Virus record (IMG/VR): IMGVR_UViG_3300020180_000014
Location: 1-64,000 of that record
Strand: one strand, 5' to 3'
Length of the DNA: 64,000 nt
From: a virus
Each line of letters starts with the position of its first letter. Positions within the stretch are counted from its first letter, which is position 1. The notes under the pieces were generated by a model. The model worked only from the letters and a program-made list of their open reading frames with translations, was not told the DNA's origin and did not search any database. Below, in pieces: positions 12,042-43,873 of the stretch. The position numbers were made by a program, and so were the translations under genes.

Positions 12042-14360
12042 CTAGACCTTGATCTCGATCTCGCGTAGCTCGCAGGTACCGACGATGTCCTGCCCATCGA
12101 GCTTCACGGTCAGCTGATTCTCGTCGAGTGACTTGAACTCGGTGAACCACACCTGACCGACGATGATCCCGAACTTGATCTGCGACGTCTGGAAGATCAG
12201 GCTGCGGGTCTCGGCGATACGTGCCTGTGTCTGTCCGGTCAGCCACTTCTCGTGGAGATTCTTCGGGCTCTTCTTGATGAAGGCCTCGACCTCGGTGATC
12301 GCATCCGACATGATCGCGTCGCACGGGTTGAGCTTCTTCTTCGCCGTGATCTTCTCGCGGACAGCCTTCACACTGTCGAGCTTGCTGCAGCCCTTGAGCT
12401 TGATGTCCAGCTCCTTGCCCATGATGAAGTCCACGCTAGCGGCCTGGACCGACTTGGGCGAGAAGCCGTTCGACGTGAGACCTTGCTCCTTGAGCCAAGT
12501 GGCGCCGTCCTCGGTGTAGAGGTCGGTGTAGCCCTGCATCTTGACGCCGGGGAACAGCTCGGTCTGGTACGCCTTGTAGACCTTCTGGAAGCCGCGTGCC
12601 TTCAGCAGCGCCCACTCCAGCTCGATGATCTCCTTGGCGCTGACGGCCTTGACCATCTTACGGTTGATGATCGGCAGCGGCTTGACGTCGATGATGATGA
12701 CGTCCTTGCAGCCTTGGGGCGTGAGTGCCATCACGACGTCTGCCTTGCGGAGCGTCTCGTAGGTCGCCTCGGAGACGCGAACCGGCAGTCGCTCGACGTT
12801 CACAAGACCGTGACTGACGATCGCGTAGTTGCGGAAGATGTGCGTCTTGAAGTCCGTTGGGATCTTGAACTTCGTGTGGTCGGGGCGCGCCGACAAATCG
12901 ACCTTGCCCGTCTTGCGAACGAGCACGCTGATGTTCGGGCTGCACTCGTTGTAGACGAGACCACCGATCTCGTAGCCGTTCGGTGCCTCGTCGGGGACGA
13001 ACTTGAGCGCGTCACGCTTTGCGGCGAGCACCGTGTCGATCTGTGTCTGCAGATCCTTGAGCTTCTTCGCGTTCTTCTCGCCAGCCATCTGCAGACGGAT
13101 CGCTTCGATCTGCACCTGCTCGTCGGCCGTGAGGTTCTCGTCGGCGTCGACGCGACCGCGCGAGATGCGCGAGTACTTGAACTCGGGGTGGCTGAGCAGC
13201 ACGCGTGTGCTGTCGTCGGCGGCGAGTACGCGAAGCAGATCGAGCACCGTGAACGCATCGTCGGCGGGGACCTTGTTCGGATCCCAACCGTTCACGTAGC
13301 GGAGCTTGCTGTCGAACGCAGCGGCCTTCGCTGCGTCCATGAACTCGGAGTACTTCTGCTTGCCGAAGCAGATGCTGAAGCTGTTGATGAACGTGACGTC
13401 ACCGAGAGCTTTCAGTACCGGGTAGACGACTTCGGGCTTCATACGAACGGCGAACAACGACATCGCCGCGTAAGAAGCAGCCATCGCATCAGGTGCTGAG
13501 CTGGAAGTCGTGTTGTTGAGCTTGTTGCCTGCGTCACCGACGACAGTCGGCGACAAGTACCAGATCGTCGTCGTGTGTTCGGGGATGGTACCCTTGCCGG
13601 TCGACACATCGTACGTCGTGATCTCACCGTCGTCGAACGCGAACGCGAAGCCGCCGATCGGATCACCACCGACATCGACCTCGATGCGCTTGCCACCCAT
13701 GGGGCGCTTCTGCATCGCCGCCTCGAACACGGGCTCGAACTTGTCGAACGCGTCGGCGTGGATGTGAACGCCACCGGCCTTCTCGGCCATCGATGCGAGC
13801 AGTGGACGGTCGGCGTAGTAGCCGTACTCGACGAATGTCGCGCTCGCGAGCACACCAGCCGTCTTCTCGACGACCTTGAGCAGCTCGGCGCGGGGCCACT
13901 GGTTGTCGCAACCGTCACTCATGAAGAACAACGCGAACGGGTTCTTGTTCTTCTTGCCGACGCGCGTGACGAGCTGTTCGACTTCGGCGAGCGGCTCCTT
14001 GAAGCCAGTGAGCCCGACAGGGCGTAGCCAGCGATCGATCGCCTTGTTGACGTCGTTGAGGTCCGTGAGTGTTGCGACCGGCTCGGCCTCGATCAGCGCG
14101 CCGAACTCGCCGCGACCGGAGAACCAGATCATCGAGAACGTGTCACCGTCCTTGAGGAGCTTGGGCAGCTTCTTCTTGAGCTGCTCGCGGATCTTCGGCA
14201 GCTCGTACGACATGCTGCCCGAGCAGTCGATGACCGCTACGTGGTTGGTGGGCGTCTCGACGGCCTTGGGCTTGGTGTCACCCTTCGCGATGGTCTGCTT
14301 GACCAGGTGCAGGCCCTTCTCGATCTCGTACGACGTTGCTTCGATCTTGCTCTTGCTCAT
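12042..14360 (-). CDS. vWA domain protein (772 aa)
   Basis: MIDAS DCSGSM, T (GLTGF) and FMSDG; RBS AAGGAG. Confidence 0.85.
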   Translation of the reverse strand: MSKSKIEATSYEIEKGLHLVKQTIAKGDTKPKAVETPTNHVAVIDCSGSMSYELPKIREQLKKKLPKLLKDGDTFSMIWFSGRGEFGALIEAEPVATLTDLNDVNKAIDRWLRPVGLTGFKEPLAEVEQLVTRVGKKNKNPFALFFMSDGCDNQWPRAELLKVVEKTAGVLASATFVEYGYYADRPLLASMAEKAGGVHIHADAFDKFEPVFEAAMQKRPMGGKRIEVDVGGDPIGGFAFAFDDGEITTYDVSTGKGTIPEHTTTIWYLSPTVVGDAGNKLNNTTSSSAPDAMAASYAAMSLFAVRMKPEVVYPVLKALGDVTFINSFSICFGKQKYSEFMDAAKAAAFDSKLRYVNGWDPNKVPADDAFTVLDLLRVLAADDSTRVLLSHPEFKYSRISRGRVDADENLTADEQVQIEAIRLQMAGEKNAKKLKDLQTQIDTVLAAKRDALKFVPDEAPNGYEIGGLVYNECSPNISVLVRKTGKVDLSARPDHTKFKIPTDFKTHIFRNYAIVSHGLVNVERLPVRVSEATYETLRKADVVMALTPQGCKDVIIIDVKPLPIINRKMVKAVSAKEIIELEWALLKARGFQKVYKAYQTELFPGVKMQGYTDLYTEDGATWLKEQGLTSNGFSPKSVQAASVDFIMGKELDIKLKGCSKLDSVKAVREKITAKKKLNPCDAIMSDAITEVEAFIKKSPKNLHEKWLTGQTQARIAETRSLIFQTSQIKFGIIVGQVWFTEFKSLDENQLTVKLDGQDIVGTCELREIEIKV

Positions 14361-30117: not shown

Positions 30118-30273
30118 GTAGAATCTCCTCGGAAGTGGTCGATCGCTCGCGCGATCGAACTCCGATCGCTGACGCGACTCATTGAAAGGTCGAGGCCACT
30201 CTAAGGGTGCGATACGTGGTTGTCAACGCGAGGTCACGCAGGGATACGAGGTTCGATCGCATGAGCGATTGAC

Positions 30274-33701: not shown

Positions 33702-35648
33702 ATGGTCAACGTCAACAACCGCGAGAACCTGGGTCCGGCCGAGCGCATCATCGCGTCGGTCCTCACGTACACCGATCACCTCTATCACGGTCGCCCCGGC
33801 GTTGTGGTCGAGGACAAGCGTACCAACATCGGTGTCCGTTGGGAGCCGGTGACGCCGAAGACGGAAGAGATCAACGGCGCCAAGCGCGAGGTCATCTACA
33901 AGCTGTCGAAGAGCGGCAAGAAGACGCTCAAGACGAAGATCGGCGTGGTCACGCAAGCTGTTGGTACGCATGGCGTGATCAAGCATGTGCGCACGGACGT
34001 GAGCCCAAACCATCCGATCGTCGGTGAGTACCGTGACGCGGGCATCTTCCCCGAAGTCGCAGCGTGGATGTATCGCCAGATCGTCGAGGTCTACAAGCTC
34101 GACAACGAGTTCGCCGCGAAGTGGGCATCGTTCGCGTACGCGCAGGATCACCGTGACCTCAAGGTCGTGCTCGCTGCGTTCATGCTCGTGCAGGCGCGCC
34201 GTGGTGACGCCGTGCTCGACGGCGGTAAGGTCGCGTTCCACGACGATGACTTCCGTGACGTCGGCGAGGCCATGATGCTGATCCGTCGCAAGGACGGTAA
34301 GGATCTGAACCCGAAGCTGCTGCTCCGCATCCGCGAGGTGCTGATGCTGCCCGAGATTGCAGCGATCAACCTGGAGCTGGGCTTCGGCAAGTCGACGCGT
34401 CATCCGTTCCTCGGTCGTTGGCCGGAGGTCACGGAGAAGTGGCTGCGCTATCGCGAGGAGAATCGTCCGCTGCTCATCGGTCTCGTCAAGGCCGGTTTCC
34501 GCAAGACGGTCATCCAGCTCGCGCGCCGCGTGCACTACAAGCCGAACACGCAGTGGTTCTTTGAGGAGCTGCGCTGGAAGCAGGTGCAGTCGGATACGGG
34601 TCACCGCACGATGGTCGACATCAACATCGTGCAGGCCGAGTCGTGGAACGAGCTGACCGAGGCACAGGTCTGCGAGAAGATCGTCGCCGAGAAGCCGGAC
34701 TGGAAGCGCATCACGGGCATGCTGCCGAAGGGCCTCATGACGCGTGCTGTGGTCGCAGCGGCCATCGAGGCGAAGGCGCTCTCGGACCGTGACCTCGTCA
34801 TCGCGACGCCGACGCTGGAAGAGCTGGGGCTGCTCGACGTACCGACGATCAAGGCACGTTGGGAGAAGGCGCTCAAGCACGCCGAAGATTCCCGCGCGGT
34901 CAACATCGCGAAGAACGTCCAGTCCAAGGAGGTGAAGGAGAAGCTCGTCGAGGCATCGGACAACGCCATCAAGAAGGCCGTCGAGGAGGTCTCGAAGAAC
35001 ATCCGCGTCTACTTCTTCGTCGACATCTCGGGCTCGATGAAGTCGTCGATCGAGGCTGCGAAGTTGCACGTCGCGAAGTTTCTCCAGGGCTTTCCACCGG
35101 ACCGCACGCACATCGCCGTGTTCAACACGGTGGGCCGCGAAATCAAGCTCAAGCACGCATCGGCGGTGGGCGTCGCCAACGCGTTCCAGGGTATTGCTGC
35201 GAGCGGTGGCACCGACTATGGCGCGGGCGTGCGCGAGCTGATGCAGTACAAGCCTCTGCCGGAAGAGGATGTGCTGTTCATCTTCGTCGGTGACGAGGAG
35301 GCACACGCGTTCGATCAGCAGGTTGTCGCATCGAGGCTCAACCCGATGGCGTTCGGCTTCGTGAAGACGATCCCGGACAACGGTGCAGCGGCGTATCGCC
35401 ATGGTCTGCACAACGGCGAGAACAACATCGCGGTTCGCGAAACGGCGAACCGTCTGAAGATTCCGTGCTTCATGATCGACGAGAAGACGTTCGATGACGC
35501 GTACGCGATCCCGCGCACGATCAGGAACCTGATCGCGGCAACGCCCGTCAACATGGCGCGTGTGGCGGCAGTCGCTGCGGCACCGCGTCTGACGTTTGTC
35601 GATCAGATCCTCAAGACGGACCTGCTGAAGAAGCCTGTCTGGGCGTGA
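33702..35648 (+). CDS. helical-solenoid plus vWA protein, TROVE/Ro60-like
   Basis: RBS GAGGAG; long alpha-helical N-terminal region followed by vWA MIDAS DISGSM, GGTD, VGDEE; TROVE assignment is from architecture only. Confidence 0.6.
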   Translation: MVNVNNRENLGPAERIIASVLTYTDHLYHGRPGVVVEDKRTNIGVRWEPVTPKTEEINGAKREVIYKLSKSGKKTLKTKIGVVTQAVGTHGVIKHVRTDVSPNHPIVGEYRDAGIFPEVAAWMYRQIVEVYKLDNEFAAKWASFAYAQDHRDLKVVLAAFMLVQARRGDAVLDGGKVAFHDDDFRDVGEAMMLIRRKDGKDLNPKLLLRIREVLMLPEIAAINLELGFGKSTRHPFLGRWPEVTEKWLRYREENRPLLIGLVKAGFRKTVIQLARRVHYKPNTQWFFEELRWKQVQSDTGHRTMVDINIVQAESWNELTEAQVCEKIVAEKPDWKRITGMLPKGLMTRAVVAAAIEAKALSDRDLVIATPTLEELGLLDVPTIKARWEKALKHAEDSRAVNIAKNVQSKEVKEKLVEASDNAIKKAVEEVSKNIRVYFFVDISGSMKSSIEAAKLHVAKFLQGFPPDRTHIAVFNTVGREIKLKHASAVGVANAFQGIAASGGTDYGAGVRELMQYKPLPEEDVLFIFVGDEEAHAFDQQVVASRLNPMAFGFVKTIPDNGAAAYRHGLHNGENNIAVRETANRLKIPCFMIDEKTFDDAYAIPRTIRNLIAATPVNMARVAAVAAAPRLTFVDQILKTDLLKKPVWA

Positions 35649-35656
35649 GGTGAACC

Positions 35657-36604
35657 GTGAGCTGGCGAGATCTACTGCACCAGGACGACGAGCGCATCGT
35701 ACTGCCGTGGATCGGTGGTCGCGAGGTGCGGTCGTTCTCGCGCACGTGGACGCTCGTCGGTGACGTACCGGCTGAGCACGGCTGGTACAGCTTCACGCTG
35801 CTCAAAGGCCGAAGCGTAACACTGCACGCAGTTGCAGAACTGCACGCTGCGACGCTCGGTCAGGTGCACTTCGGTTACCTCGTCGGTGATCACTTCGCGA
35901 CTGAGTCTTTCATCGAGCGCGTTGTAATCGATCCAAAGGACGTCGCCAAGCGTCTGCCGCGCGTGCACCTGATCAACGACGACGTCGATCGGTTTGCACG
36001 CGTCAGCATCGGTTCGGTGACGTCCGACGGTCCACTGTTCTTTCGTCAGGTCGAGATGCCGCTGGGTCCCGAGGACGACGTACTGCGTGCGTACGAGGAC
36101 CAGGCTGCCGACGTCAACGCCATCAAGGGCGTCACGCCCGCACTCGATGCGGCGTTTCGGATGGCAGCGTGGCAGCGTACGGAGGCTGTTCGTCGTCGCG
36201 CGGAACTCGAACGGCTGCGCGTCGAGGAAGAGGCCAAGCGTGCAGCCGAGGAGCGTCGCCAGAACCTGGTCAAGCAGCTCGGTGACGGTGCCGGGCGTCG
36301 CGAGATGGCGAAGGTCGACTTCGAGGCTGCCGCACGTGCTGCACTTACGGTTGGCGGTGCTGAGCTGCTCGACTGGAACAAGGTACGCAACCGCAACGAG
36401 TGGGTCGTGCGCTATCGCCTCGATCGTCGTCGGTTCGAGTGCGTCTGCGACGAGCGGCTGCACATCGTCGACGCCGGAATTTGCTTGGTCGATCACCGTA
36501 CCGGTATCAAGGGCGACACGCGCTTCACGTTGGAGTCGCTACCGGCGGTTGTTCGTCAAGCCATGCGCGAGGGCGTGCTGGTTGTTTTCAGGAACGTCAA
36601 CTAG
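35657..36604 (+). CDS. putative E2-like ubiquitin-conjugating domain protein
   Basis: C-terminal LHIVDAGICLVDH...TLESLPAVV resembles the E2 HPN...G.ICL active site plus the following helix; operonic with JAB, Ubl and E1. Confidence 0.5.
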   Translation: MSWRDLLHQDDERIVLPWIGGREVRSFSRTWTLVGDVPAEHGWYSFTLLKGRSVTLHAVAELHAATLGQVHFGYLVGDHFATESFIERVVIDPKDVAKRLPRVHLINDDVDRFARVSIGSVTSDGPLFFRQVEMPLGPEDDVLRAYEDQAADVNAIKGVTPALDAAFRMAAWQRTEAVRRRAELERLRVEEEAKRAAEERRQNLVKQLGDGAGRREMAKVDFEAAARAALTVGGAELLDWNKVRNRNEWVVRYRLDRRRFECVCDERLHIVDAGICLVDHRTGIKGDTRFTLESLPAVVRQAMREGVLVVFRNVN

Positions 36605-37149: not shown

Positions 37150-37577
37150 GCGTTGAATGGTCGATGGAGAAGGTCGCCGAACAGTTCCGGCTCGACGTTC
37201 GCGCACGCTTCGAGGCTGAGAACGCAGAGTGGCTCGCCGAAGAGCGTACAGGCATCGCGAAGATCAAAGCCGACTGCGATGCGGCAGGCGAGGCGTACCC
37301 GGACTGGCTTACGCCCGAGCGCAACAGCTTCTACTGGGAGATCTACAGCACCAGTGAGATCGCGATCGTCAACAACTCGGTCGACGTGCTGTTGCCGACG
37401 AACTTCGCGGTCTACCCCAACTTCATTGCGATGTTCGGCAAGACGTCAGTCGGTTGGTCGATCCCGTCGGTCGAGGCGAAAATCGTCGACGGTGAAGCGC
37501 GCCTGTTCGTGCACTTGATCCTGATCGACTACTGGGATGACGAACGCCACGCGAAGTGGCTGAAAGAGAACCCGTGA
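37146..37577 (+). CDS. hypothetical protein
   Basis: GTGA coupling. Confidence 0.6.
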   Translation: MSVEWSMEKVAEQFRLDVRARFEAENAEWLAEERTGIAKIKADCDAAGEAYPDWLTPERNSFYWEIYSTSEIAIVNNSVDVLLPTNFAVYPNFIAMFGKTSVGWSIPSVEAKIVDGEARLFVHLILIDYWDDERHAKWLKENP

Positions 37578-38314
37578 CAACACCACCCCGCTACTACCTC
37601 GACACTGAGTTCATCGACGACGGCGTGACCGAGACGTTGCAGCTGATCTCGATCGGTATCATCTGCGACGACGGCCGCGAGCTGTACCTCGTCAACAGTG
37701 AGTTCGACGAGAGCCGCTGCGACGACTGGCTCAAGGAGAACGTCCTCAAGCAGCTACCGCTGTGCACGTGTCCGGGCGGGGGCGCGTTGGATCATCTCGG
37801 CCACAACGCGCCGGACTGCAAGTGGCGTACGCGCAATCAGATCCGGGATGCGATCATCGCGTTCGTTCCCGATCCCGGCAACGAAGTGAAGCCCGAGTTC
37901 TGGGCGTTCTTCGCGAGCTACGACTGGGTACTGTTCGCACAGCTGTTCGGCAAGATGATCAACTTGCCGAAGCACTTCCCGTGGCTCGTCAACGACCTCA
38001 AGACGTGGGCCAAGCACCTGGGCTACACCGGCAAGTTCAAGGAGCTGTTGCCGAACACCGGTCATCATGATGCTCTCGCGGATGCGCGCTGGAACCGCGA
38101 CGTGCACAAGATCCTGATGGAGAAGCTCACGTCCACGCAGAAGCTGTTGGGGACGACACTCGTCGAAGCGATGGCGCTCTACGACGAGAAGTGCACCGGT
38201 TGCAACCTGCAGACGTCCTGCGAATGTCCGAGCAGTGGACACGGCGCAGACTGCCGTCGCGATCGTGAAGCGGCCGTGCGCAAGGTCATAACCGATCTGG
38301 GGCTGACGTCGTGA
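37574..38314 (+). CDS. DEDD 3'-5' exoribonuclease (Rv2179c-like)
   Basis: YYLDTEF, LISIG, ASYDW, HDALADARW. Confidence 0.85.
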   Translation: MTTPPRYYLDTEFIDDGVTETLQLISIGIICDDGRELYLVNSEFDESRCDDWLKENVLKQLPLCTCPGGGALDHLGHNAPDCKWRTRNQIRDAIIAFVPDPGNEVKPEFWAFFASYDWVLFAQLFGKMINLPKHFPWLVNDLKTWAKHLGYTGKFKELLPNTGHHDALADARWNRDVHKILMEKLTSTQKLLGTTLVEAMALYDEKCTGCNLQTSCECPSSGHGADCRRDREAAVRKVITDLGLTS

Positions 38315-38589
38315 ATCCGGTCATCGAGAAGCTCATGCCAGATGCACGCGATACGTACTGCACGGGCGCATTGTTCAAGTACGTCCAGCACAAGTACAAC
38401 TGCGACTGGCTGCAGCCGATGTGGCACAAGGGTCCGTGCGACTGCGGACTCAAGGAGTTGATCCAGCAACTGCCTGAAGGTTTGCTGCGAATCCTCGTCG
38501 AAGCGAGCGAACACGTGCGCGCGACCGTCGAGGGTATCAAGCAGGACAAGGAACGCGACGAGCGAGAAGCCACGGAGAAAGCACCATGA
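38311..38589 (+). CDS. hypothetical protein (H-x-x-x-C...CDCG)
   Basis: coupled ORF. Confidence 0.6.
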   Translation: MNPVIEKLMPDARDTYCTGALFKYVQHKYNCDWLQPMWHKGPCDCGLKELIQQLPEGLLRILVEASEHVRATVEGIKQDKERDEREATEKAP

Positions 38590-38990
38590 TGGAGACCGGA
38601 GTCGTCGTCAGCATTCACCACGAGCCCATCTTCTGGCACGAACCCGGTGGACGTTCGAGCGGCGCGTTGCCGGATAGTCGCATGCTGTGGGACGTGTTGT
38701 GGCAGGCGAACCGCGACGGTTGGCTTTCGGGTTTCGCGCACACGCATCCAGGTGGCGGTCTGCCGGGTCCATCGCGCGAGGACATCTCGTCGTTCGTCGC
38801 GATCGAGAACGCGATCGGTCGGCCGCTCAACTGGTGGATCGTCAGCTCGGACATGACCGTGCTCGTGCGCAAGTCGACGATGGACAGCATACCGGGTCGC
38901 GAGATTTTCGGTACGACACGCATCGACGATCCTGTGTGGACGCCGGATCTGCGTCGTCGCTCGGGCATGGGCCGGACGCCGTATCGCTGA
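38586..38990 (+). CDS. JAB/MPN+ (JAMM) metalloprotease
   Basis: N-terminal E plus HTHP-x5-PSREDI (HxHx7Sx2D). Confidence 0.85.
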   Translation: MMETGVVVSIHHEPIFWHEPGGRSSGALPDSRMLWDVLWQANRDGWLSGFAHTHPGGGLPGPSREDISSFVAIENAIGRPLNWWIVSSDMTVLVRKSTMDSIPGREIFGTTRIDDPVWTPDLRRRSGMGRTPYR

Positions 38991-39010: not shown

Positions 39011-39039
39011 TTGACTTGCCGAGCCTTCGTCGTTAGGGT
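39011..39039 (+). promoter_or_regulatory. sigma70-like promoter
   Basis: TTGACT-17-TAGGGT. Confidence 0.65.
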
Positions 39040-39064
39040 CAGGGTTCATCGAGAGGACTGTGCC

Positions 39065-39508
39065 ATGGCTGATAACGAGCTGATGCGTGTGATCAAGGAC
39101 GACGAGGCCCGCGTGAACGTCACGTGGAAGAACGCGAACGGCGACCTGCCGGATCCGGTGTTCCGTGACTCGTCCGAGGGTGACGTCCGTGGTTGGGTGA
39201 CCGAGGCCGTCCGTAACGGTGGCGTGCCCGGTATCACTGCAGACCGCGATGCGAACTTCGCCGACTACATCGTGGATCGCTTCCCGCCGACGGAAGCGCG
39301 CCCGTACAACCTGATCCAGGTGCGCCCGAAGACGGCGTTCGGCGCTGACATCGAGGATGACGGTCCGAGCGACGCCGAGATCGAAGACCAAGAGATCGAA
39401 CGGCAGATCGAGGCTCAAGAAGAGGCTGCGATCGAGCAGCGTGCCGAGGATCAAGAGATCGAACGGCAGATCGAGGCTCAAGAAGAGGCCGCGATCGAAC
39501 AGGTCTAG
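39065..39508 (+). CDS. ubiquitin-like (beta-grasp) protein ending KTAFG plus acidic C-terminal extension
   Basis: ARVNVTW...GDLPDPV...helix...LIQVRPKTAFG; between JAB and E1 genes; RBS GAGG. Confidence 0.65.
   Translation: MADNELMRVIKDDEARVNVTWKNANGDLPDPVFRDSSEGDVRGWVTEAVRNGGVPGITADRDANFADYIVDRFPPTEARPYNLIQVRPKTAFGADIEDDGPSDAEIEDQEIERQIEAQEEAAIEQRAEDQEIERQIEAQEEAAIEQV
39383..39502 (+). repeat. 63-nt tandem duplication (EDQEIERQIEAQEEAAIEQ x2)
   Basis: copies start at 39383 and 39446. Confidence 0.9.
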
Positions 39509-39510
39509 TC

Positions 39511-40011
39511 GTGCTGCGCGTCGTCTCAGGTGCACTGATCCGCGACGGCTACGTGCTGATGGGTTTGCGTAAGAAGAGCGCATACCGACCTGACCTCTGG
39601 GAACTTCCCGGAGGAAAGATCGATCCGGGCGAGTCGCCGCACCAAGCGCTTGTCCGCGAGTGGAGTGAGGAGTGTGGTTGCCGCGTCGAGCCCGGCCAGT
39701 TTCTCTCGATGGCGATACTGCACGTCGACATCTCGTTCGTCATCGAGCTGTACACGATTCGGCTCGTCATGGGCACGCCGATGGCGCTCGACCATCAGGA
39801 GCTGCGTTGGGTCAATCCGTTGTACGCCGTCCAGCGGCTGCCGTGCTCGCCTGCATTCTACCTGCACTACCCGCAGCTCGTGAAACACATCGAAGCCAGC
39901 TGGTCGATGTCGACGTGCGACGTCGTCGGAGACAGCGGTTGCACGAACGATGAGTGTTCGCGTTGCCACCCTCTCGCGAAACCTGTACGGGCTCTTCACG
40001 AGTCGTGGTGA
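39511..40011 (+). CDS. Nudix hydrolase (MutT-like)
   Basis: WELPGGKIDPGESPHQALVREWSEECG. Confidence 0.9.
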   Translation: MLRVVSGALIRDGYVLMGLRKKSAYRPDLWELPGGKIDPGESPHQALVREWSEECGCRVEPGQFLSMAILHVDISFVIELYTIRLVMGTPMALDHQELRWVNPLYAVQRLPCSPAFYLHYPQLVKHIEASWSMSTCDVVGDSGCTNDECSRCHPLAKPVRALHESW

Positions 40012-40546: not shown

Positions 40547-40851
40547 TCGAGACCGTGTTCCATACCGTGGTCTGGACCGAGACACCGACGAACATCACGA
40601 TGTCGCTCGGGCTCGAAGGTGCGCTCACGACCCGTGAAGCAGCCGAACGCGTGGCGACTGCGTACCGTGAGTTTCTGCAAGCCGACTCCGACGACGGGCT
40701 CGTACAGGCGTACTTCGCGCGTGTGGGCATCCTGGAGATTTCGCGCGCACACCCACAGCTCAAGCACCCCGAACCGCGCGTGGACGTCGACGCGATCGTC
40801 GCCGAGATCGAAGCGCGAACAGCACGCAAACGCGAAAAGAGGCTCTCGTGA
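40543..40851 (+). CDS. hypothetical protein
   Basis: ATGA coupling. Confidence 0.6.
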   Translation: MIETVFHTVVWTETPTNITMSLGLEGALTTREAAERVATAYREFLQADSDDGLVQAYFARVGILEISRAHPQLKHPEPRVDVDAIVAEIEARTARKREKRLS

Positions 40852-41345
40852 GACCGGACTGGGATACGTACTTCATGATCATCGCCGACGCGGTGTCGAT
40901 GCGTGCGAGCTGCGACCGTGCGCGCGTTGGTGCGGTGATCGTCGTCGATAAGCGCATCATGTCGACCGGCTACAACGGCGCACCGAGCGGCGTGTCGTCG
41001 TGCGACGAGGTCGGCCATGACCTGGTCGACATCAACGGTCGTCAGAGCTGTGTGCGTGTCATCCACTCTGAGAAGAACGCCATCATCACGGCGGCGCGGC
41101 ACGGGGTTCGTCTGGCAGGTGCGACGCTCTACACGACCGCGAGCACGTGCCGCGACTGCTACATGGCGGCGCTGCAGACCGGCATCGTTCGGATCGTCTA
41201 CGGCTCCGAGTACATCGGCGGCAAGTCGTTCGATTTCGTTTCGGCGGCGCAAGCGAACGGCATAGAGCTGCGGCACTTACCGATCGCGGATGCGATCAAG
41301 AACTGGACGCCGCCGCCACACGCGGTCTCTGTCAAGGCGCCATGA
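40848..41345 (+). CDS. dCMP deaminase family protein
   Basis: RPDWDTYF, VGAVIV, GYNG, HSE.NAI, CRDC. Confidence 0.9.
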   Translation: MRPDWDTYFMIIADAVSMRASCDRARVGAVIVVDKRIMSTGYNGAPSGVSSCDEVGHDLVDINGRQSCVRVIHSEKNAIITAARHGVRLAGATLYTTASTCRDCYMAALQTGIVRIVYGSEYIGGKSFDFVSAAQANGIELRHLPIADAIKNWTPPPHAVSVKAP

Positions 41346-41587: not shown

Positions 41588-42184
41588 ATGAAGACCGTAA
41601 CCATCGTTGGTGTCGGCGCGCTCGGCTCGCACGTCACGCAGTTTCTCCGCAACGAGGCGAACCTGCGCGTGATCGACTTCGATCGCGTCGAGGCTAAGAA
41701 CATCCTGTCGCAGTTTCATGGCAAACCGGGCGGCGGCAAGCTCAAGGTCGAGGCACTCAAGGGTGCGATGCAGTTCCTGTGGGGAACGAAGCTCGACGTG
41801 CGCAGTGCGAAGCTGGAGTCGAACAACGTGATCACGATGCTGGCGGGCAGCGACCTGATCATCGATTGTCTCGACAACGGTGCTGGCCGTCGTGTGCTTC
41901 AGGCGTACGCACGCGGTGACGTTGCACATGCACCGGGGCATCGCGAGCAGACGCCGTTGCTCCACGGCGCACTTGCTGCTGACGGTGCGTTCGGCCGTGT
42001 GATCTGGGATGAGAACTTCGTAATCGACGAGAACGACGGCGGTGCCGCGACATGCGAGGACGGCGAGCACCTGCCGTTCATCGTGATGGTGTCGAGCTTG
42101 ATCGCACAGTCCGCGAAGGTCTACCTGAAGACGGGCAAGAAGCTCGGCTGGTCGATCGCACCTACGAACATCGTCGGGGTGTAG
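41588..42184 (+). CDS. ThiF/E1-like adenylyltransferase
   Basis: GVGALGS, IDFDRVE.KN..SQ, K.KVEAL, DLIIDCLDN, C-terminal ATCE. Confidence 0.9.
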   Translation: MKTVTIVGVGALGSHVTQFLRNEANLRVIDFDRVEAKNILSQFHGKPGGGKLKVEALKGAMQFLWGTKLDVRSAKLESNNVITMLAGSDLIIDCLDNGAGRRVLQAYARGDVAHAPGHREQTPLLHGALAADGAFGRVIWDENFVIDENDGGAATCEDGEHLPFIVMVSSLIAQSAKVYLKTGKKLGWSIAPTNIVGV

Positions 42185-42406: not shown

Positions 42407-42789
42407 TGCCGCTCCCCGCCGGTAAGCCTCGGACGTTGACAGGTCGTGTCGCCTATCGCATGGTCGACGCGCTCGAAGAAGCATTCAAGCGGGTTAACCA
42501 GGCCGACTTCGAGTACATCCTCATGCTCGGTGCAGCGCAGGCGACAAAGACAGCGCTCACGCCCGAGGACTTCGACAACGATCAGGGCATCGACGCGTTG
42601 ACAGCGATCTTCGCGATGCTGACGAAGGAACACGATCGCGACGTGATCCACGTGACGCCGGAGTGGCGACGCGTCGTGGTCTCCGCGCGGCGGTTGATGC
42701 CGCAACGAACAGGTGAACGGTTCTGGCGTTGGAAGGCGAACGGCGAGGCAAACCTGGTGCACGTCGTCGTGATCCCGGGTTTGCCATGA
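42406..42789 (+). CDS. hypothetical protein
   Basis: TGATG coupling, RBS AAGGAG. Confidence 0.6.
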   Translation: MPLPAGKPRTLTGRVAYRMVDALEEAFKRVNQADFEYILMLGAAQATKTALTPEDFDNDQGIDALTAIFAMLTKEHDRDVIHVTPEWRRVVVSARRLMPQRTGERFWRWKANGEANLVHVVVIPGLP

Positions 42790-42794
42790 ACCTC

Positions 42795-42823
42795 TTGACA
42801 AGGTCAGAACCCTTCGCTAGGGT
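42795..42823 (+). promoter_or_regulatory. sigma70 promoter driving the ncRNA array
   Basis: TTGACA-17-TAGGGT, about 8 nt upstream of RNA1. Confidence 0.8.
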
Positions 42824-42831
42824 GCTTTTCA

Positions 42832-42925
42832 GCTGGTCACCACCAGCGTCGAGCTTACAAGCGCCCGCATGGGCATCATTCCTACCATCTGGAAAGAAAC
42901 CAGCTCGACGCACTCGGTGACCGGT
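42832..42925 (+). ncRNA. Y-RNA-like RNA 1
   Basis: terminal stem GGTCACC/GGTGACC, internal loop ACCAG/CACTC, 9-bp stem CGTCGAGCT/AGCTCGACG, two inner hairpins. Confidence 0.7.
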
Positions 42926-42931
42926 CATCAC

Positions 42932-43056
42932 GAAGGATAAGGAGACTGGGTCTCCGCTTCCCTTACCCGGAAAGTTACCCTCACAGTAACAACTCGCTGC
43001 TTCGGCAGCACCCGCGACTGTGCACACGCTGGTTGGTTCGATTCCAACATCCTTCA
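42932..43056 (+). ncRNA. tRNA-like RNA 2 (acceptor stem plus T arm, enlarged body)
   Basis: GAAGGAT/ATCCTTC+A; T arm GTTGG-TTCGATT-CCAAC; AACTC-[GCTGC TTCG GCAGC]-ACCCG. Confidence 0.7.
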
Positions 43057-43092
43057 CGACGCTCTGTTTGCGACACTGACAACTGAAGACTC

Positions 43093-43224
43093 GGGGATTT
43101 ACCGCCGGTCGGTTCCGGCACTTGAATACGGATCAAGCTATCCAACAGCGGCACTCGGCGCCTTCAAAACACGCCACCAGTCGATTGTTTACAAGCCCGA
43201 GGTTCGACTCCTCAAATCCCCACC
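43093..43224 (+). ncRNA. tRNA-like RNA 3 (acceptor stem plus T arm, enlarged body)
   Basis: GGGGATTT/AAATCCCC+ACC; GAGG-TTCGACT-CCTC; CACTC-[GGCG..CGCC]-ACCAG. Confidence 0.7.
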
Positions 43225-43346
43225 GAGACCGTCACCGCATACGCGCTCACACGCAAGCTCAATTGGTAGAGCAACGGCCTTATAAGCCGTAGGATTCGGT
43301 TCAAATCCGAAGCTACACAACACAGCGCGTATCACTCGACGGTTTC
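43225..43346 (+). ncRNA. Y-RNA-like RNA 4 with tRNA core (D, anticodon UAU and T arms; no acceptor stem)
   Basis: GAGACCGTC/GACGGTTTC, loop ACCGC/CACTC, ATACGCGCT/AGCGCGTAT, enclosing tRNA arms at 43257-43311. Confidence 0.75.
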
Positions 43347-43350
43347 ACTA

Positions 43351-43405
43351 TGACCCCGAAGTCCAAGCGACACTGCATTGCAGTCTAGCCCACACGGAGG
43401 GGTCA
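43351..43405 (+). ncRNA. possible fifth small structured RNA or terminator hairpin
   Basis: TGACCCC/GGGGTCA closing stem, short T run downstream. Confidence 0.35.
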
Positions 43406-43426
43406 ACCCTTTTTCGGAGAAGTGTC

Positions 43427-43873
43427 ATGCGTACCAGCGATCCCAAGCCGTACACGGCACCGCACGAACGCATCGCAGCGCACAAGCAGTGGAACATCGA
43501 GTACAACGCACACGTCGCGGCGCTCGAAGCGGAGTACGGTGTTCCGTACGAGAAGCTGCCGATGGCGTTGAAGCACGGGGCGCCGAAGCATCCACGCCGG
43601 ACGAAGGCTCGCCGTTTCGACTACCGCGTGTATGACCGCACGTGGCGCATCCGCTCGCTCATCGAGCAGCGTCGTCGCGGTGTCGAGCGCAATGGCTGGC
43701 GCACTGAGCGTCGTACGTTCCTCGCCGACGTCGAGCGGTTCCGCCGCGCCGAGGTCGAGGTCCGCAAGCAGCGCGCTGTGAAGAAGGGCCGTGGCAAGCC
43801 GCTACCGAAGAACCACTTCGCGTCGCGGCGTAATGCCGTCGAGAAGCGTGAGTTCCGCGAGAAGAGCTGGTGA
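43427..43873 (+). CDS. basic hypothetical protein
   Basis: RBS GGAG; R/K-rich. Confidence 0.7.
   Translation: MRTSDPKPYTAPHERIAAHKQWNIEYNAHVAALEAEYGVPYEKLPMALKHGAPKHPRRTKARRFDYRVYDRTWRIRSLIEQRRRGVERNGWRTERRTFLADVERFRRAEVEVRKQRAVKKGRGKPLPKNHFASRRNAVEKREFREKSW

What the first reader, a model, noticed from the sequence alone, without database searches (positions are those of the whole stretch)
42832..43346. Four tandem ncRNAs share the same ACCNN / NACUC internal loop, twice linear and twice circularly permuted
All four follow a TTGACA-17-TAGGGT promoter. RNA1: GGTCACC-ACCAG-CGTCGAGCT...AGCTCGACG-CACTC-GGTGACC. RNA4: GAGACCGTC-ACCGC-ATACGCGCT...AGCGCGTAT-CACTC-GACGGTTTC. In RNA2 and RNA3 the same loop sits inside the molecule in permuted order: AACTC-[GCTGC TTCG GCAGC]-ACCCG and CACTC-[GGCG..CGCC]-ACCAG. 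Stem sequences all differ but still pair, while the loop is kept, which is the signature of a protein-binding site carried on interchangeable RNA bodies. From memory, RNA1 5' AGCUGGUC and RNA4 3' CACUCGAC resemble the Ro-binding ends of vertebrate Y RNA (GGCUGGUC / CACUUGAC); this needs checking.
Basis: seen in the sequence. Interest (0 to 1): 0.9.

Follow-up and report, generated by a model that had tools for sequence, protein, structure and literature searches.

The report
tRNA-shaped RNAs with Ro60-type handle
A phage encodes four small structured RNAs that graft one conserved two-stem "handle" onto different, mostly tRNA-shaped bodies; the same RNA family sits beside a hidden Ro60-like protein gene in about 50 other phages and in myxobacteria, so it is probably a new form of the Ro60/Y-RNA particle.

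Summary
One promoter-like site (42795-42823) is followed by four strongly folding RNAs: 42832-42925, 42932-43056, 43093-43222 and 43225-43346. All four carry the same stem / internal loop / stem module. In RNA1 and RNA4 it is open-ended; in RNA2 and RNA3 it is capped and sits inside the molecule.

Comparison with relatives redefines the module. Three features are conserved across the family:
- CUC just 5' of an invariant C-G closing pair.
- Both helices, which covary.

The ACC half of the loop is specific to this phage lineage.

A covariance model of the RNA4 type finds full-length copies in 49 of 63 phage contigs and in about a dozen of the 26 bacterial (mostly Myxococcota) loci that carry a homologue of the 33702 protein. 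In whole bacterial genomes the strong hits occur only next to that gene.

Pfam TROVE does not detect the protein. Its predicted helical domain matches only Ro60 structures well (Z about 10, next best 6.7), and an intact vWA/MIDAS domain follows.

The RNAs are not YrlA or vertebrate Y RNA by model or by motif.

Best reading (confidence 0.6): these are Y-RNA-like partners of a divergent Ro60-like protein. This is a new variant of a known kind. Binding is inferred, not shown. The scan has already noted this system on at least six other genomes.

The parts
42795..42823 (+). Promoter-like site (TTGACA, 17 nt, TAGGGT) for the whole RNA array
   Evidence: Read. The same hexamers and spacing precede the array in both related phages. 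The motif with <=1 mismatch occurs 3 times in the window against 0.12 expected. The generic sigma-70 scan does not score it. No transcript data.
42832..42925 (+). RNA1: open-ended module with a small non-tRNA body of two hairpins. It is the most Y-RNA-like in outline.
   Evidence: MFE -47.8 kcal/mol, z -6.3. Conserved in 2 relatives, with compensatory changes in the inner stem and first hairpin. Junction motif at 42856.
42932..43056 (+). RNA2: tRNA-shaped RNA. Acceptor 42932-38 / 43049-55, T arm 43032-48, anticodon-like arm 42957-73. The capped module (42982-43029) sits in the variable-arm position.
   Evidence: Fold. Two-sequence alignment with compensatory changes in the acceptor and the D-like hairpin. 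Absent from the third phage. Same architecture as bacterial copies that score 50-60 bits as tRNA.
43093..43222 (+). RNA3: tRNA-shaped RNA. Acceptor 43093-43100 / 43214-21, D-like arm 43104-19, canonical anticodon-like arm 43121-37, T arm 43199-43213. The capped module (43144-43196) sits in the variable-arm position.
   Evidence: Fold. Conserved in both relatives. In the third phage the loop letters differ while the stems are kept.
43225..43346 (+). RNA4: open-ended module enclosing a tRNA core (D, anticodon and T arms). The acceptor stem is reduced to about 2 pairs and flanked by CA-rich single strands.
   Evidence: Rfam tRNA 49.4 bits over model positions 9-63 only. z -6.7. Alifold gives 21 of 35 pairs with compensatory change. 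It is the founder of model R1, which finds about 80 distinct relatives.
43354..43412 (+). Conserved imperfect hairpin followed by a U run; probable end of the array transcript
   Evidence: Alignment of three phages with 3 compensatory pairs. Not scored by the terminator scan.
33702..35648 (+). Ro60-like protein (648 aa): N-terminal beta domain, helical ring domain, vWA with intact MIDAS. It is the proposed partner of the RNAs.
   Evidence: Pfam gives only weak VWA_2, no TROVE. With Foldseek on the full model the nine best hits are all Ro60. The helical domain alone has its best three hits, out of 48,161 chains, to Ro60: Z 10.1, 10.0, 9.8 with 247-268 residues aligned, next best Z 6.7. DxSxS, T and D of MIDAS are invariant.
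35657..36604 (+). Conserved 315-aa partner gene of unknown fold, always directly after the Ro60-like gene
   Evidence: tblastn hits in 24 of 28 loci, directly downstream. No Pfam, PHROG, NCBIfam or Atlas hit.
38586..38990 (+). JAB-like peptidase gene of the conserved operon
   Evidence: Pfam Prok-JAB 19.4 bits, below cut-off. Conserved in 14 loci.
39011..39508 (+).
   Evidence: Conserved in 21 loci between the 315-aa/JAB genes and the ThiF gene. The fold was not verified here.
41588..42184 (+). ThiF/E1-like adenylating enzyme, last gene of the conserved operon. In bacteria the RNAs start within about 50-300 nt of it.
   Evidence: Pfam ThiF 55 bits. Conserved in 20 loci.

Best explanation
The four RNAs belong to a conserved family of tRNA-derived non-coding RNAs. 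Each carries a portable docking module: a distal stem, a 4-5 x 4-5 internal loop with CUC next to a fixed C-G pair, a proximal stem, and the single-stranded junction YACAMGC.

The module is grafted in different places:
- at the acceptor end of a tRNA core (RNA4);
- in the variable-arm position of an otherwise complete cloverleaf (RNA2, RNA3);
- on a minimal two-hairpin body (RNA1).

Most likely the module is the binding site for the Ro60-like ring protein encoded at 33702-35648. The tRNA-shaped part would then be the effector or decoy end, as in bacterial Y RNAs. That gives a Ro60/Y-RNA-type particle made early in infection from a single promoter and cut into four RNAs.

Shown: the structures, their conservation and covariation, the genomic linkage, and the Ro60-like fold.

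Inferred: transcription, processing, binding, and any downstream role with the adjacent ubiquitin-like / E1 / JAB genes or the phage DEDD exoribonuclease.
For: Structure: folds. For the family alignment of 21 RNAs, 94.4% of cells pair against 31-48% when partners are slid, and 8 of 9 pairs in each module helix show compensatory change.

Fixed letters in unpaired positions: CUC-G 21/21; A, C, A, G, C of the junction 21/21.

Same half-module in all four window RNAs.

Linkage:
- Model R1 finds full-length copies beside the Ro60-like gene in about a dozen of the 26 bacterial (mostly Myxococcota) loci and in 49 of 63 phage loci.
- In five whole 4.5-12 Mb genomes every hit of at least 48 bits lies next to that gene.
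- In 121 genomes of one order, the two true hits are both adjacent to the gene, and the third hit was an ordinary tRNA-Thr.
- The RNAs directly flank the operon Ro60-like / 315-aa / JAB / small protein / ThiF.

Protein: Ro60 structures are the only strong matches to the helical domain and the best matches to the whole model. vWA with intact MIDAS.

Precedent: bacterial and phage Ro60 proteins bind tRNA-like Y RNAs encoded beside them (PMC4201824, PMC12135203, 10.1101/312249).

The anticodon-like loops keep tRNA features while the triplet varies. Of 70 seven-nt loops, 59 have U33 and 67 have a purine at 37, with more than 30 different triplets.
Against: - No binding, expression or processing data.
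- The known Ro-binding motifs and the Rfam Y_RNA and YrlA models do not match.
- Pfam TROVE does not detect the protein. Foldseek on the helical domain alone is not significant. Z about 10 is in the range where helical repeats can match by general arrangement.
- The Ro60-like gene always comes with four other conserved genes, so linkage cannot say which protein binds the RNA.
- In this phage the gene lies about 7 kb from the array.
- The alignment used for pair counts was fitted to the model structure.
Confidence: 0.6

Rival explanations
1. The module is recognised by another protein of the conserved operon (the 315-aa protein, the ThiF/E1-like enzyme, the small ubiquitin-like protein or the JAB peptidase). 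The RNAs would then be substrates, scaffolds or regulators of that machinery, for example an E1 / sulfur-carrier type RNA modification pathway. The Ro60-like protein would play another role.
For: The RNAs co-occur with the whole five-gene set, not with the Ro60-like gene alone. In many bacterial loci they begin just after the ThiF gene. From established knowledge, ThiF-type enzymes with small beta-grasp carriers act on tRNA in known pathways (TtuB/TtuC, Urm1/Uba4).
Against: No PP-loop or other RNA-modifying domain was found in the operon proteins. In several loci the RNAs lie directly upstream of the Ro60-like gene instead (L046, L048, L051). Ro60 is the only operon protein with a fold known to bind structured RNA stems.
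Confidence: 0.2
2. RNA2 and RNA3 are working tRNAs with an extra arm, and RNA1 and RNA4 are precursors. On this view the long stems with the internal loop are processing signals for an endonuclease (RNase III-like or other), not a stable protein handle.
For: RNA2 and RNA3 have 7-8 bp acceptor stems, normal T loops and a discriminator. RNA3 has a canonical anticodon loop conserved in three phages. Bacterial counterparts score 50-60 bits as tRNA. The array must be cut from one transcript in any case.
Against: - ARAGORN calls none of the four.
- RNA4-type bodies have only 2-5 acceptor pairs and no 3' CCA context, so cutting cannot give a chargeable tRNA.
- RNA2 has a pyrimidine at position 37 and a 3-nt D loop.
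- RNA1 has no tRNA body at all.
- A processing stem would not need a fixed single-stranded junction, nor exclusive linkage to one operon.
Confidence: 0.1
3. The RNAs are free-standing tRNA decoys. They would soak up host anticodon nucleases or other tRNA-directed defence enzymes, with the module serving only to stabilise them.
For: The anticodon-like loops are tRNA-like yet highly diverse in triplet. The family lives in phages and in tRNA-array islands.
Against: This does not explain the strict linkage to the operon or the fixed loop and junction letters. It is compatible with, rather than exclusive of, the Ro60-like particle model.
Confidence: 0.1

Closest known systems
Bacterial and mycobacteriophage Rsr (Ro60) with YrlA Y RNAs (Rfam RF02553; Chen et al. 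2014, PMC4201824; Wang et al. 2018, 10.1101/312249)
   Same: The non-coding RNAs are encoded beside a Ro60-type ring protein. They pair a protein-binding stem carrying an internal loop with a tRNA-mimicking domain. They occur in bacteria and phages, often several RNAs per locus.
   Different: - No hit to RF02553, and no GNCGAAN0-1G motif.
- The handle is defined by CUC-G plus YACAMGC.
- It is grafted at several positions, including inside a complete cloverleaf, whereas YrlA has one fixed topology with a closed acceptor-like stem.
- The protein is too divergent for Pfam TROVE and has an extra N-terminal beta domain.
- The operon partners are ThiF/JAB/small protein, not RtcB/RtcA.
Thermus phage phiLo Ro60 with Yrl1/Yrl2 (PMC12135203; PDB 9KOP, 9L5Y)
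   Same: A phage-encoded Ro60-fold protein with phage-encoded partner RNAs of stem / bulge / stem design. 9L5Y is one of the three best structural matches to the helical domain.
   Different: The phiLo RNAs were picked by their CGAA motif and lie immediately upstream of the gene. Here there is no CGAA in the handle, the bodies are tRNA-shaped, and the array is about 7 kb downstream of the gene.
Deinococcus radiodurans Rsr / Yrn1 / PNPase (RYPER) machine
   Same: The Y RNA tethers the ring protein to a 3'-5' exoribonuclease. This phage lineage has a DEDD 3'-5' exoribonuclease gene (37556-38314) inside the same block. 2NVO is the best structural match.
   Different: No evidence here of any tethering. 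The exonuclease is specific to this phage lineage and is absent from the bacterial operons.
Vertebrate Y RNAs (Rfam RF00019)
   Same: Terminal stem, internal loop, second stem, and a variable distal part.
   Different: No model hit, no GGUCCGA.
Class II tRNAs with long variable arms, and circularly permuted tRNA genes
   Same: RNA2 and RNA3 are cloverleaves with a large extra arm between the anticodon and T arms. Relatives in L057 and L138 have bodies in permuted order: T arm, closed acceptor, D arm, anticodon arm.
   Different: The extra arm is about 48 nt, with a conserved internal loop and junction. The D arms are atypical. There is no sign that the permuted forms are rejoined into tRNAs.

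Membership tests
YrlA (Rfam RF02553) | Match to the family covariance model at or near the gathering score (69 bits) | tested here: not met
   No hit at E<=10 in 42600-43600. No hit at E<=1 in the three phage records.
YrlA (Rfam RF02553) | GNCGAAN0-1G motif in the 5' strand of the Ro-binding stem (PMC4201824) | tested here: not met
   The pattern is absent from 42832-43346. The only CGAA in or next to that stretch are at 42931 (spacer) and 43308 (T stem of RNA4).
YrlA (Rfam RF02553) | tRNA-like domain with T and D arms | tested here: met
   RNA4 core scores 49.4 bits against Rfam tRNA. RNA2 and RNA3 have canonical T arms and acceptor stems. RNA1 has none.
YrlA (Rfam RF02553) | Encoded next to a Ro60 orthologue | tested here: inconclusive
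   The RNAs are linked family-wide to a protein with a Ro60-like predicted fold, but Pfam TROVE does not recognise that protein.
Vertebrate-type Y RNA (Rfam RF00019) | Model match and the conserved bulged helix with GGUCCGA | tested here: not met
   No Rfam hit at E<=10. The motif is absent.
tRNA (Rfam RF00005) | Complete cloverleaf with a 7-bp acceptor stem, recognised by tRNA finders | tested here: not met
   ARAGORN finds 0 tRNAs in the window and in the 91-kb record. Rfam matches only positions 9-63 of RNA4. RNA2 and RNA3 are not called.
Ro60 / TROVE protein (for the 33702 protein) | Match to Pfam TROVE (PF05731) | tested here: not met
   No hit in hmmscan or in six-frame searches of G000, G001 and G002. 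The control rang in D. radiodurans.
Ro60 / TROVE protein (for the 33702 protein) | Helical-repeat ring domain of Ro60 architecture | tested here: met
   With VIA-align over 48,161 chains, the best three hits are 2NVO, 1YVP and 9L5Y: Z 10.1-9.8, 247-268 of 341 residues aligned, next best Z 6.7 over 109 residues. This rests on a predicted model with pLDDT 81.
Ro60 / TROVE protein (for the 33702 protein) | C-terminal vWA domain with MIDAS | tested here: met
   vWA matches at Z 14-15. Pfam VWA_2 scores 25.3 bits. D441, S443, S445, T504 and D531 are invariant in 35 homologues.
Ro60 / TROVE protein (for the 33702 protein) | Binds Y RNA on the outer ring surface | not testable with these tools
   Needs EMSA, RIP or a structure.

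The most novel reading that the evidence does not exclude
The Ro60-like ring uses interchangeable tRNA mimics with fast-changing anticodon loops as sensor or guide subunits. The particle would be functionally coupled to the adjacent ubiquitin-like / E1 / JAB machinery. That would be an RNA-surveillance particle directing or controlled by protein tagging during phage-host conflict, a link not described for any Ro60 system.
Probability: 0.25. Interest if true: 0.9.

Novelty: new variant of a known kind. Interest (0 to 1): 0.75.

Why it matters
Ro60 and its Y RNAs are conserved from bacteria to humans, yet what the RNA's effector end does is still unclear.

This family offers a natural experiment. 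One fixed handle is attached to many tRNA-like bodies, in at least three arrangements across the family and with dozens of anticodon-like triplets. It is present in about 50 large phages and in some myxobacteria.

It shows that Ro60-type particles are more widespread than TROVE-based searches indicate. It provides a defined RNA motif for binding studies. It also places the particle in an operon with ubiquitin-like conjugation enzymes, which suggests an unexplored connection between RNA quality control or tRNA mimicry and protein modification in phage-host conflict.

Tried and rejected
- **Rfam searches.** At the gathering threshold and at E<=10, only the tRNA core of RNA4 was found. The other weak hits (HOTAIR_3, GlsR16, AS1890) are noise.
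- **blastn against 50,697 phage records.** It found only the tRNA-like 55 nt of RNA4.
- **Exact 16-17-mer scans of IMG/VR.** They returned mostly chance hits in AT-rich phages. Only two contigs were true relatives.
- **First generic stem / loop / stem descriptor.** It was far too permissive and gave no information. A stricter sequence-anchored one missed RNA2 and RNA3, and a later junction-anchored version worked.
- **MAFFT alignment of the RNA2 and RNA3 modules.** MAFFT could not align them structurally, so I built no covariance model of the capped form.
- **The stem-ACCA idea.** I considered that stem-ACCA mimics a tRNA 3' end, or that the loops mark a splicing-type excision site. I rejected this because the fourth loop letter varies (A, C, G) and the wider family has no ACC there.
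- **Weak fold evidence.** Foldseek on the helical domain alone was not significant. VIA-align on the whole model reported only the vWA domain.
- **The 315-aa protein.** No hit in Pfam, PHROGs, NCBIfam or the ESM Atlas.
- **A false positive.** One R1 hit of 54.7 bits away from the operon was an ordinary tRNA-Thr, so only hits of about 60 bits or more, or hits adjacent to the operon, should be trusted.
- **Tools and papers not available.** The Ro60 review (PMC10870794) and the 2016 RNA-repair survey (10.1093/nar/gkw722) are not held.
- **Literature searches.** Searches for TROVE with JAB, ubiquitin-like, RtcB or vWA found no description of this system.

Full report
**What is in the window.**
The window is the first 64 kb of a 91,395-nt IMG/VR virus contig (about 62% G+C, estimated 68% complete). 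At 42795-42823 there is a promoter-like site, TTGACA / 17 nt / TAGGGT. It is followed by about 520 nt without a plausible ORF.

- RNA1 (42832-42925) and RNA4 (43225-43346) are closed by a 9-10 bp terminal stem, a 4-5 x 4-5 internal loop and a second 9-10 bp stem. Their z-scores are -6.3 and -6.7.
- RNA2 (42932-43056) and RNA3 (43093-43222) have a 7-8 bp acceptor-type stem and a standard T arm. They carry the same stem / loop / stem unit internally, capped by a small loop, in the place of a tRNA variable arm.
- ARAGORN calls no tRNA anywhere in the contig.
- Rfam finds only the D, anticodon and T arms of RNA4: tRNA model positions 9-63, 49.4 bits.

**Conservation in close relatives.**
Two IMG/VR contigs carry the same array behind the same promoter hexamers. 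One is a 35.7-kb fragment with all four RNAs at 84% identity. The other is a 196-kb phage with RNA1, RNA3, RNA4 and a fifth RNA of the RNA4 type, but no RNA2. Compensatory changes occur in the module stems, in the first hairpin of RNA1, and in the acceptor and D-like stems of RNA2.

In the 196-kb phage the loop letters of RNA3, RNA4 and RNA5 differ from those in the window. The ACC side becomes AUCC or ACUC, and the ACUC side becomes CCUC. The stems are kept.

**The module redefined.**
I built a covariance model (R1) from five RNA4-type sequences. It recovered 21 full-length members from the phages and from bacterial loci.

On that alignment 94.4% of cells form standard pairs, against 31-48% when partners are slid by 1-3 columns. 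Eight of nine pairs in each of the two module helices show changes on both sides. The caveat is that the alignment was fitted to the model.

The invariant features are:
- the C-G pair that closes the distal stem on the loop;
- CUC immediately 5' of that G (CUCG in 21 of 21);
- five letters of a single-stranded junction, YACAMGC, directly 3' of the proximal-stem strand.

The other loop strand is only A-first and C-rich. The 3' junction is CA-rich and without G.

It always has the same position relative to the module, whichever topology is used. The half-module (C-AYC, 7-15 nt, YACAMGC) occurs in each of the four RNAs within 400 nt. In 200 Markov simulations of the contig, no 600-nt span held more than two.

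**Family-wide distribution and linkage.**
The 648-aa protein at 33702-35648 has more than 1,900 homologues.

In one-genome-per-species bacterial contigs it was found in 26 loci. Nearly all are Myxococcota, with one Gemmatimonadota and one Methylobacter-labelled MAG. Several of these loci sit inside large tRNA gene arrays.

Four further genes follow the protein gene in fixed order: a 315-aa protein, a JAB-like peptidase, a small protein and a ThiF/E1-like enzyme. R1-type RNAs lie immediately after the ThiF gene or immediately before the Ro60-like gene in about a dozen of these loci.

The linkage is specific:
- In five whole genomes of 4.5-12 Mb, every hit of 48 bits or more is at the operon. 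Elsewhere only ordinary tRNAs score, at 35-45 bits.
- In 121 genomes of one order there were three hits at E<=1e-7. Two are adjacent to the gene, and the third proved to be a normal tRNA-Thr.
- The two other genomes of that sample that carry the operon have divergent or capped-type module RNAs next to it.
- In IMG/VR, 65 contigs carry the gene, many of them 200-600 kb. R1 finds at least one full-length copy in the flanks of 49 of 63.

The capped, variable-arm form of RNA2 and RNA3 is also common beside the bacterial operons. There the bodies are good enough tRNAs to score 50-60 bits despite a roughly 50-nt insertion.

A third arrangement occurs in L057 and L138. The module is open-ended and the body is in permuted order: T arm, closed acceptor, D arm, anticodon arm.

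**The protein.**
Pfam sees only a weak vWA domain and no TROVE domain. TROVE is also absent from six-frame searches of the three phage records, while the control rang in Deinococcus.

The AlphaFold2 model (pLDDT 79) has an N-terminal beta domain, a helical domain and a vWA domain.
- With Foldseek on the whole model, the nine best hits are all Ro60 structures (E 4.5e-7 to 9e-6, 530-590 columns), ahead of vWA-only hits. The TM-scores are low.
- The helical domain modelled alone (pLDDT 81) gave no significant Foldseek hit.
- In an all-against-48,161-chain VIA-align search, its three best matches are D. radiodurans Rsr, Xenopus Ro60 and Thermus phage phiLo Ro60. These have Z 10.1, 10.0 and 9.8 with 247-268 residues aligned. 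The next chain is at Z 6.7 over 109 residues.
- The MIDAS residues are invariant in 35 homologues.

I read this as a divergent Ro60-fold protein, with a probability of about 0.8.

**Comparison with known Y RNAs.**
Bacterial and phage Ro60 proteins bind Y RNAs encoded beside them. In these RNAs a stem with a bulge carrying GNCGAAN0-1G or CGAA is joined to a tRNA-like domain (PMC4201824, PMC12135203, 10.1101/312249). The design principle here is the same, but membership fails:
- no hit to Rfam YrlA or Y_RNA;
- no GNCGAA or GGUCCGA in the array;
- different and multiple topologies.

That resemblance lies mostly in outer-stem letters, which covary freely in the family, so I give it no weight. I could not fetch a vertebrate Y RNA to compare letter by letter.

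**How it most likely works.**
One early transcript from 42795-42823 to the U run at about 43408-43412 would be cut into four RNAs. RNase P and RNase Z acting on the tRNA-like RNA2 and RNA3 would also free the 3' end of RNA1 and the 5' end of RNA4. This step is inferred.

The module, with its widened internal loop and fixed single-stranded letters, would dock on the Ro60-like ring. The tRNA-shaped ends would present anticodon-like loops. Of 70 seven-nt loops in 78 distinct family members, 59 keep U33 and 67 keep a purine at position 37, while carrying more than 30 different triplets. This pattern fits mimicry of many tRNAs (bait, sensor or tether) better than decoding.

In this phage lineage a DEDD 3'-5' exoribonuclease gene lies in the same block, which recalls the Ro60 / Y RNA / exonuclease machines.

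Which operon protein actually binds the handle, and what the ubiquitin-like / E1 / JAB genes contribute, cannot be decided from sequence.

**Novelty and standing.**
I found no paper describing this RNA family or its link to a Ro60-like protein with ThiF/JAB genes. Two relevant reviews are not held.

Within this scan the same system has already been noted and followed up on at least six other genomes, with the same reading. Those are AI notes that I saw only after reaching my own conclusion, and they are not independent evidence.

This window adds three things: a compact four-RNA array with a body-less member (RNA1), loss of the tRNA-Met gene that follows the array in relatives, and lineage-specific insertions in the operon.

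I class the finding as a new variant of a known kind.

Noticed in passing
window 43354-43412: A fifth conserved structured element lies between RNA4 and a U run. It is an imperfect long hairpin with three compensatory pairs across three phages. It may be the terminator of the array or a further small RNA.
   Followed up: partly
L001 2855-2928; L029 about 1845-1916: Both relatives have a genuine tRNA-Met (CAU) just after the array (Rfam 62.5 bits in L001). In the window only its first few bases remain, after the U run, so the gene was lost. The 91-kb contig has no canonical tRNA at all.
   Followed up: partly
window 43057-43092: The spacer between RNA2 and RNA3 holds a 12-nt stretch conserved in all three phages (around 43078-43089), with no obvious pairing partner.
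   Followed up: no
window 39011-39039 (+) and 30198-30226 (-): Two more copies of the TTGAC-17-TAGGGT type site (1 mismatch each), against 0.12 expected. One lies at the start of the small ubiquitin-like gene. This looks like a recurrent promoter type of this phage or its host.
   Followed up: partly
window 37556-38314, 39511-40011, 40848-41345: A DEDD / Rv2179c-like 3'-5' exoribonuclease, a NUDIX hydrolase and a dCMP-deaminase-type enzyme are inserted between the conserved operon genes. They are shared only with the two related phages, not with the bacterial operons.
   Followed up: partly
L057 about 13941-14096; L138 11110-11270 (minus strand): A third topology of the family. The module is open-ended and encloses a circularly permuted tRNA body: T arm, acceptor stem closed by a loop, D arm, anticodon arm. 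This is the arrangement closest to YrlA.
   Followed up: partly
L033-L037 (Myxococcota and Gemmatimonadota MAG contigs): In several bacterial loci the Ro60-like operon is embedded in very large tRNA gene arrays, with 5 to 26 tRNAs within 10 kb. This suggests a mobile tRNA island or a prophage-like element.
   Followed up: no
window 33702-34040 (residues about 30-111 of the 648-aa protein): An N-terminal all-beta domain precedes the Ro60-like ring. It has no counterpart in the matched Ro60 structures, and its fold was not searched separately.
   Followed up: no
window 42880-42895 and 42957-42973: The second hairpin of RNA1 and the anticodon-like arm of RNA2 have the same UUCC/GGAA stem. Both loops contain UACC and are fully conserved in relatives, so this may be a second shared recognition element.
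   Followed up: no
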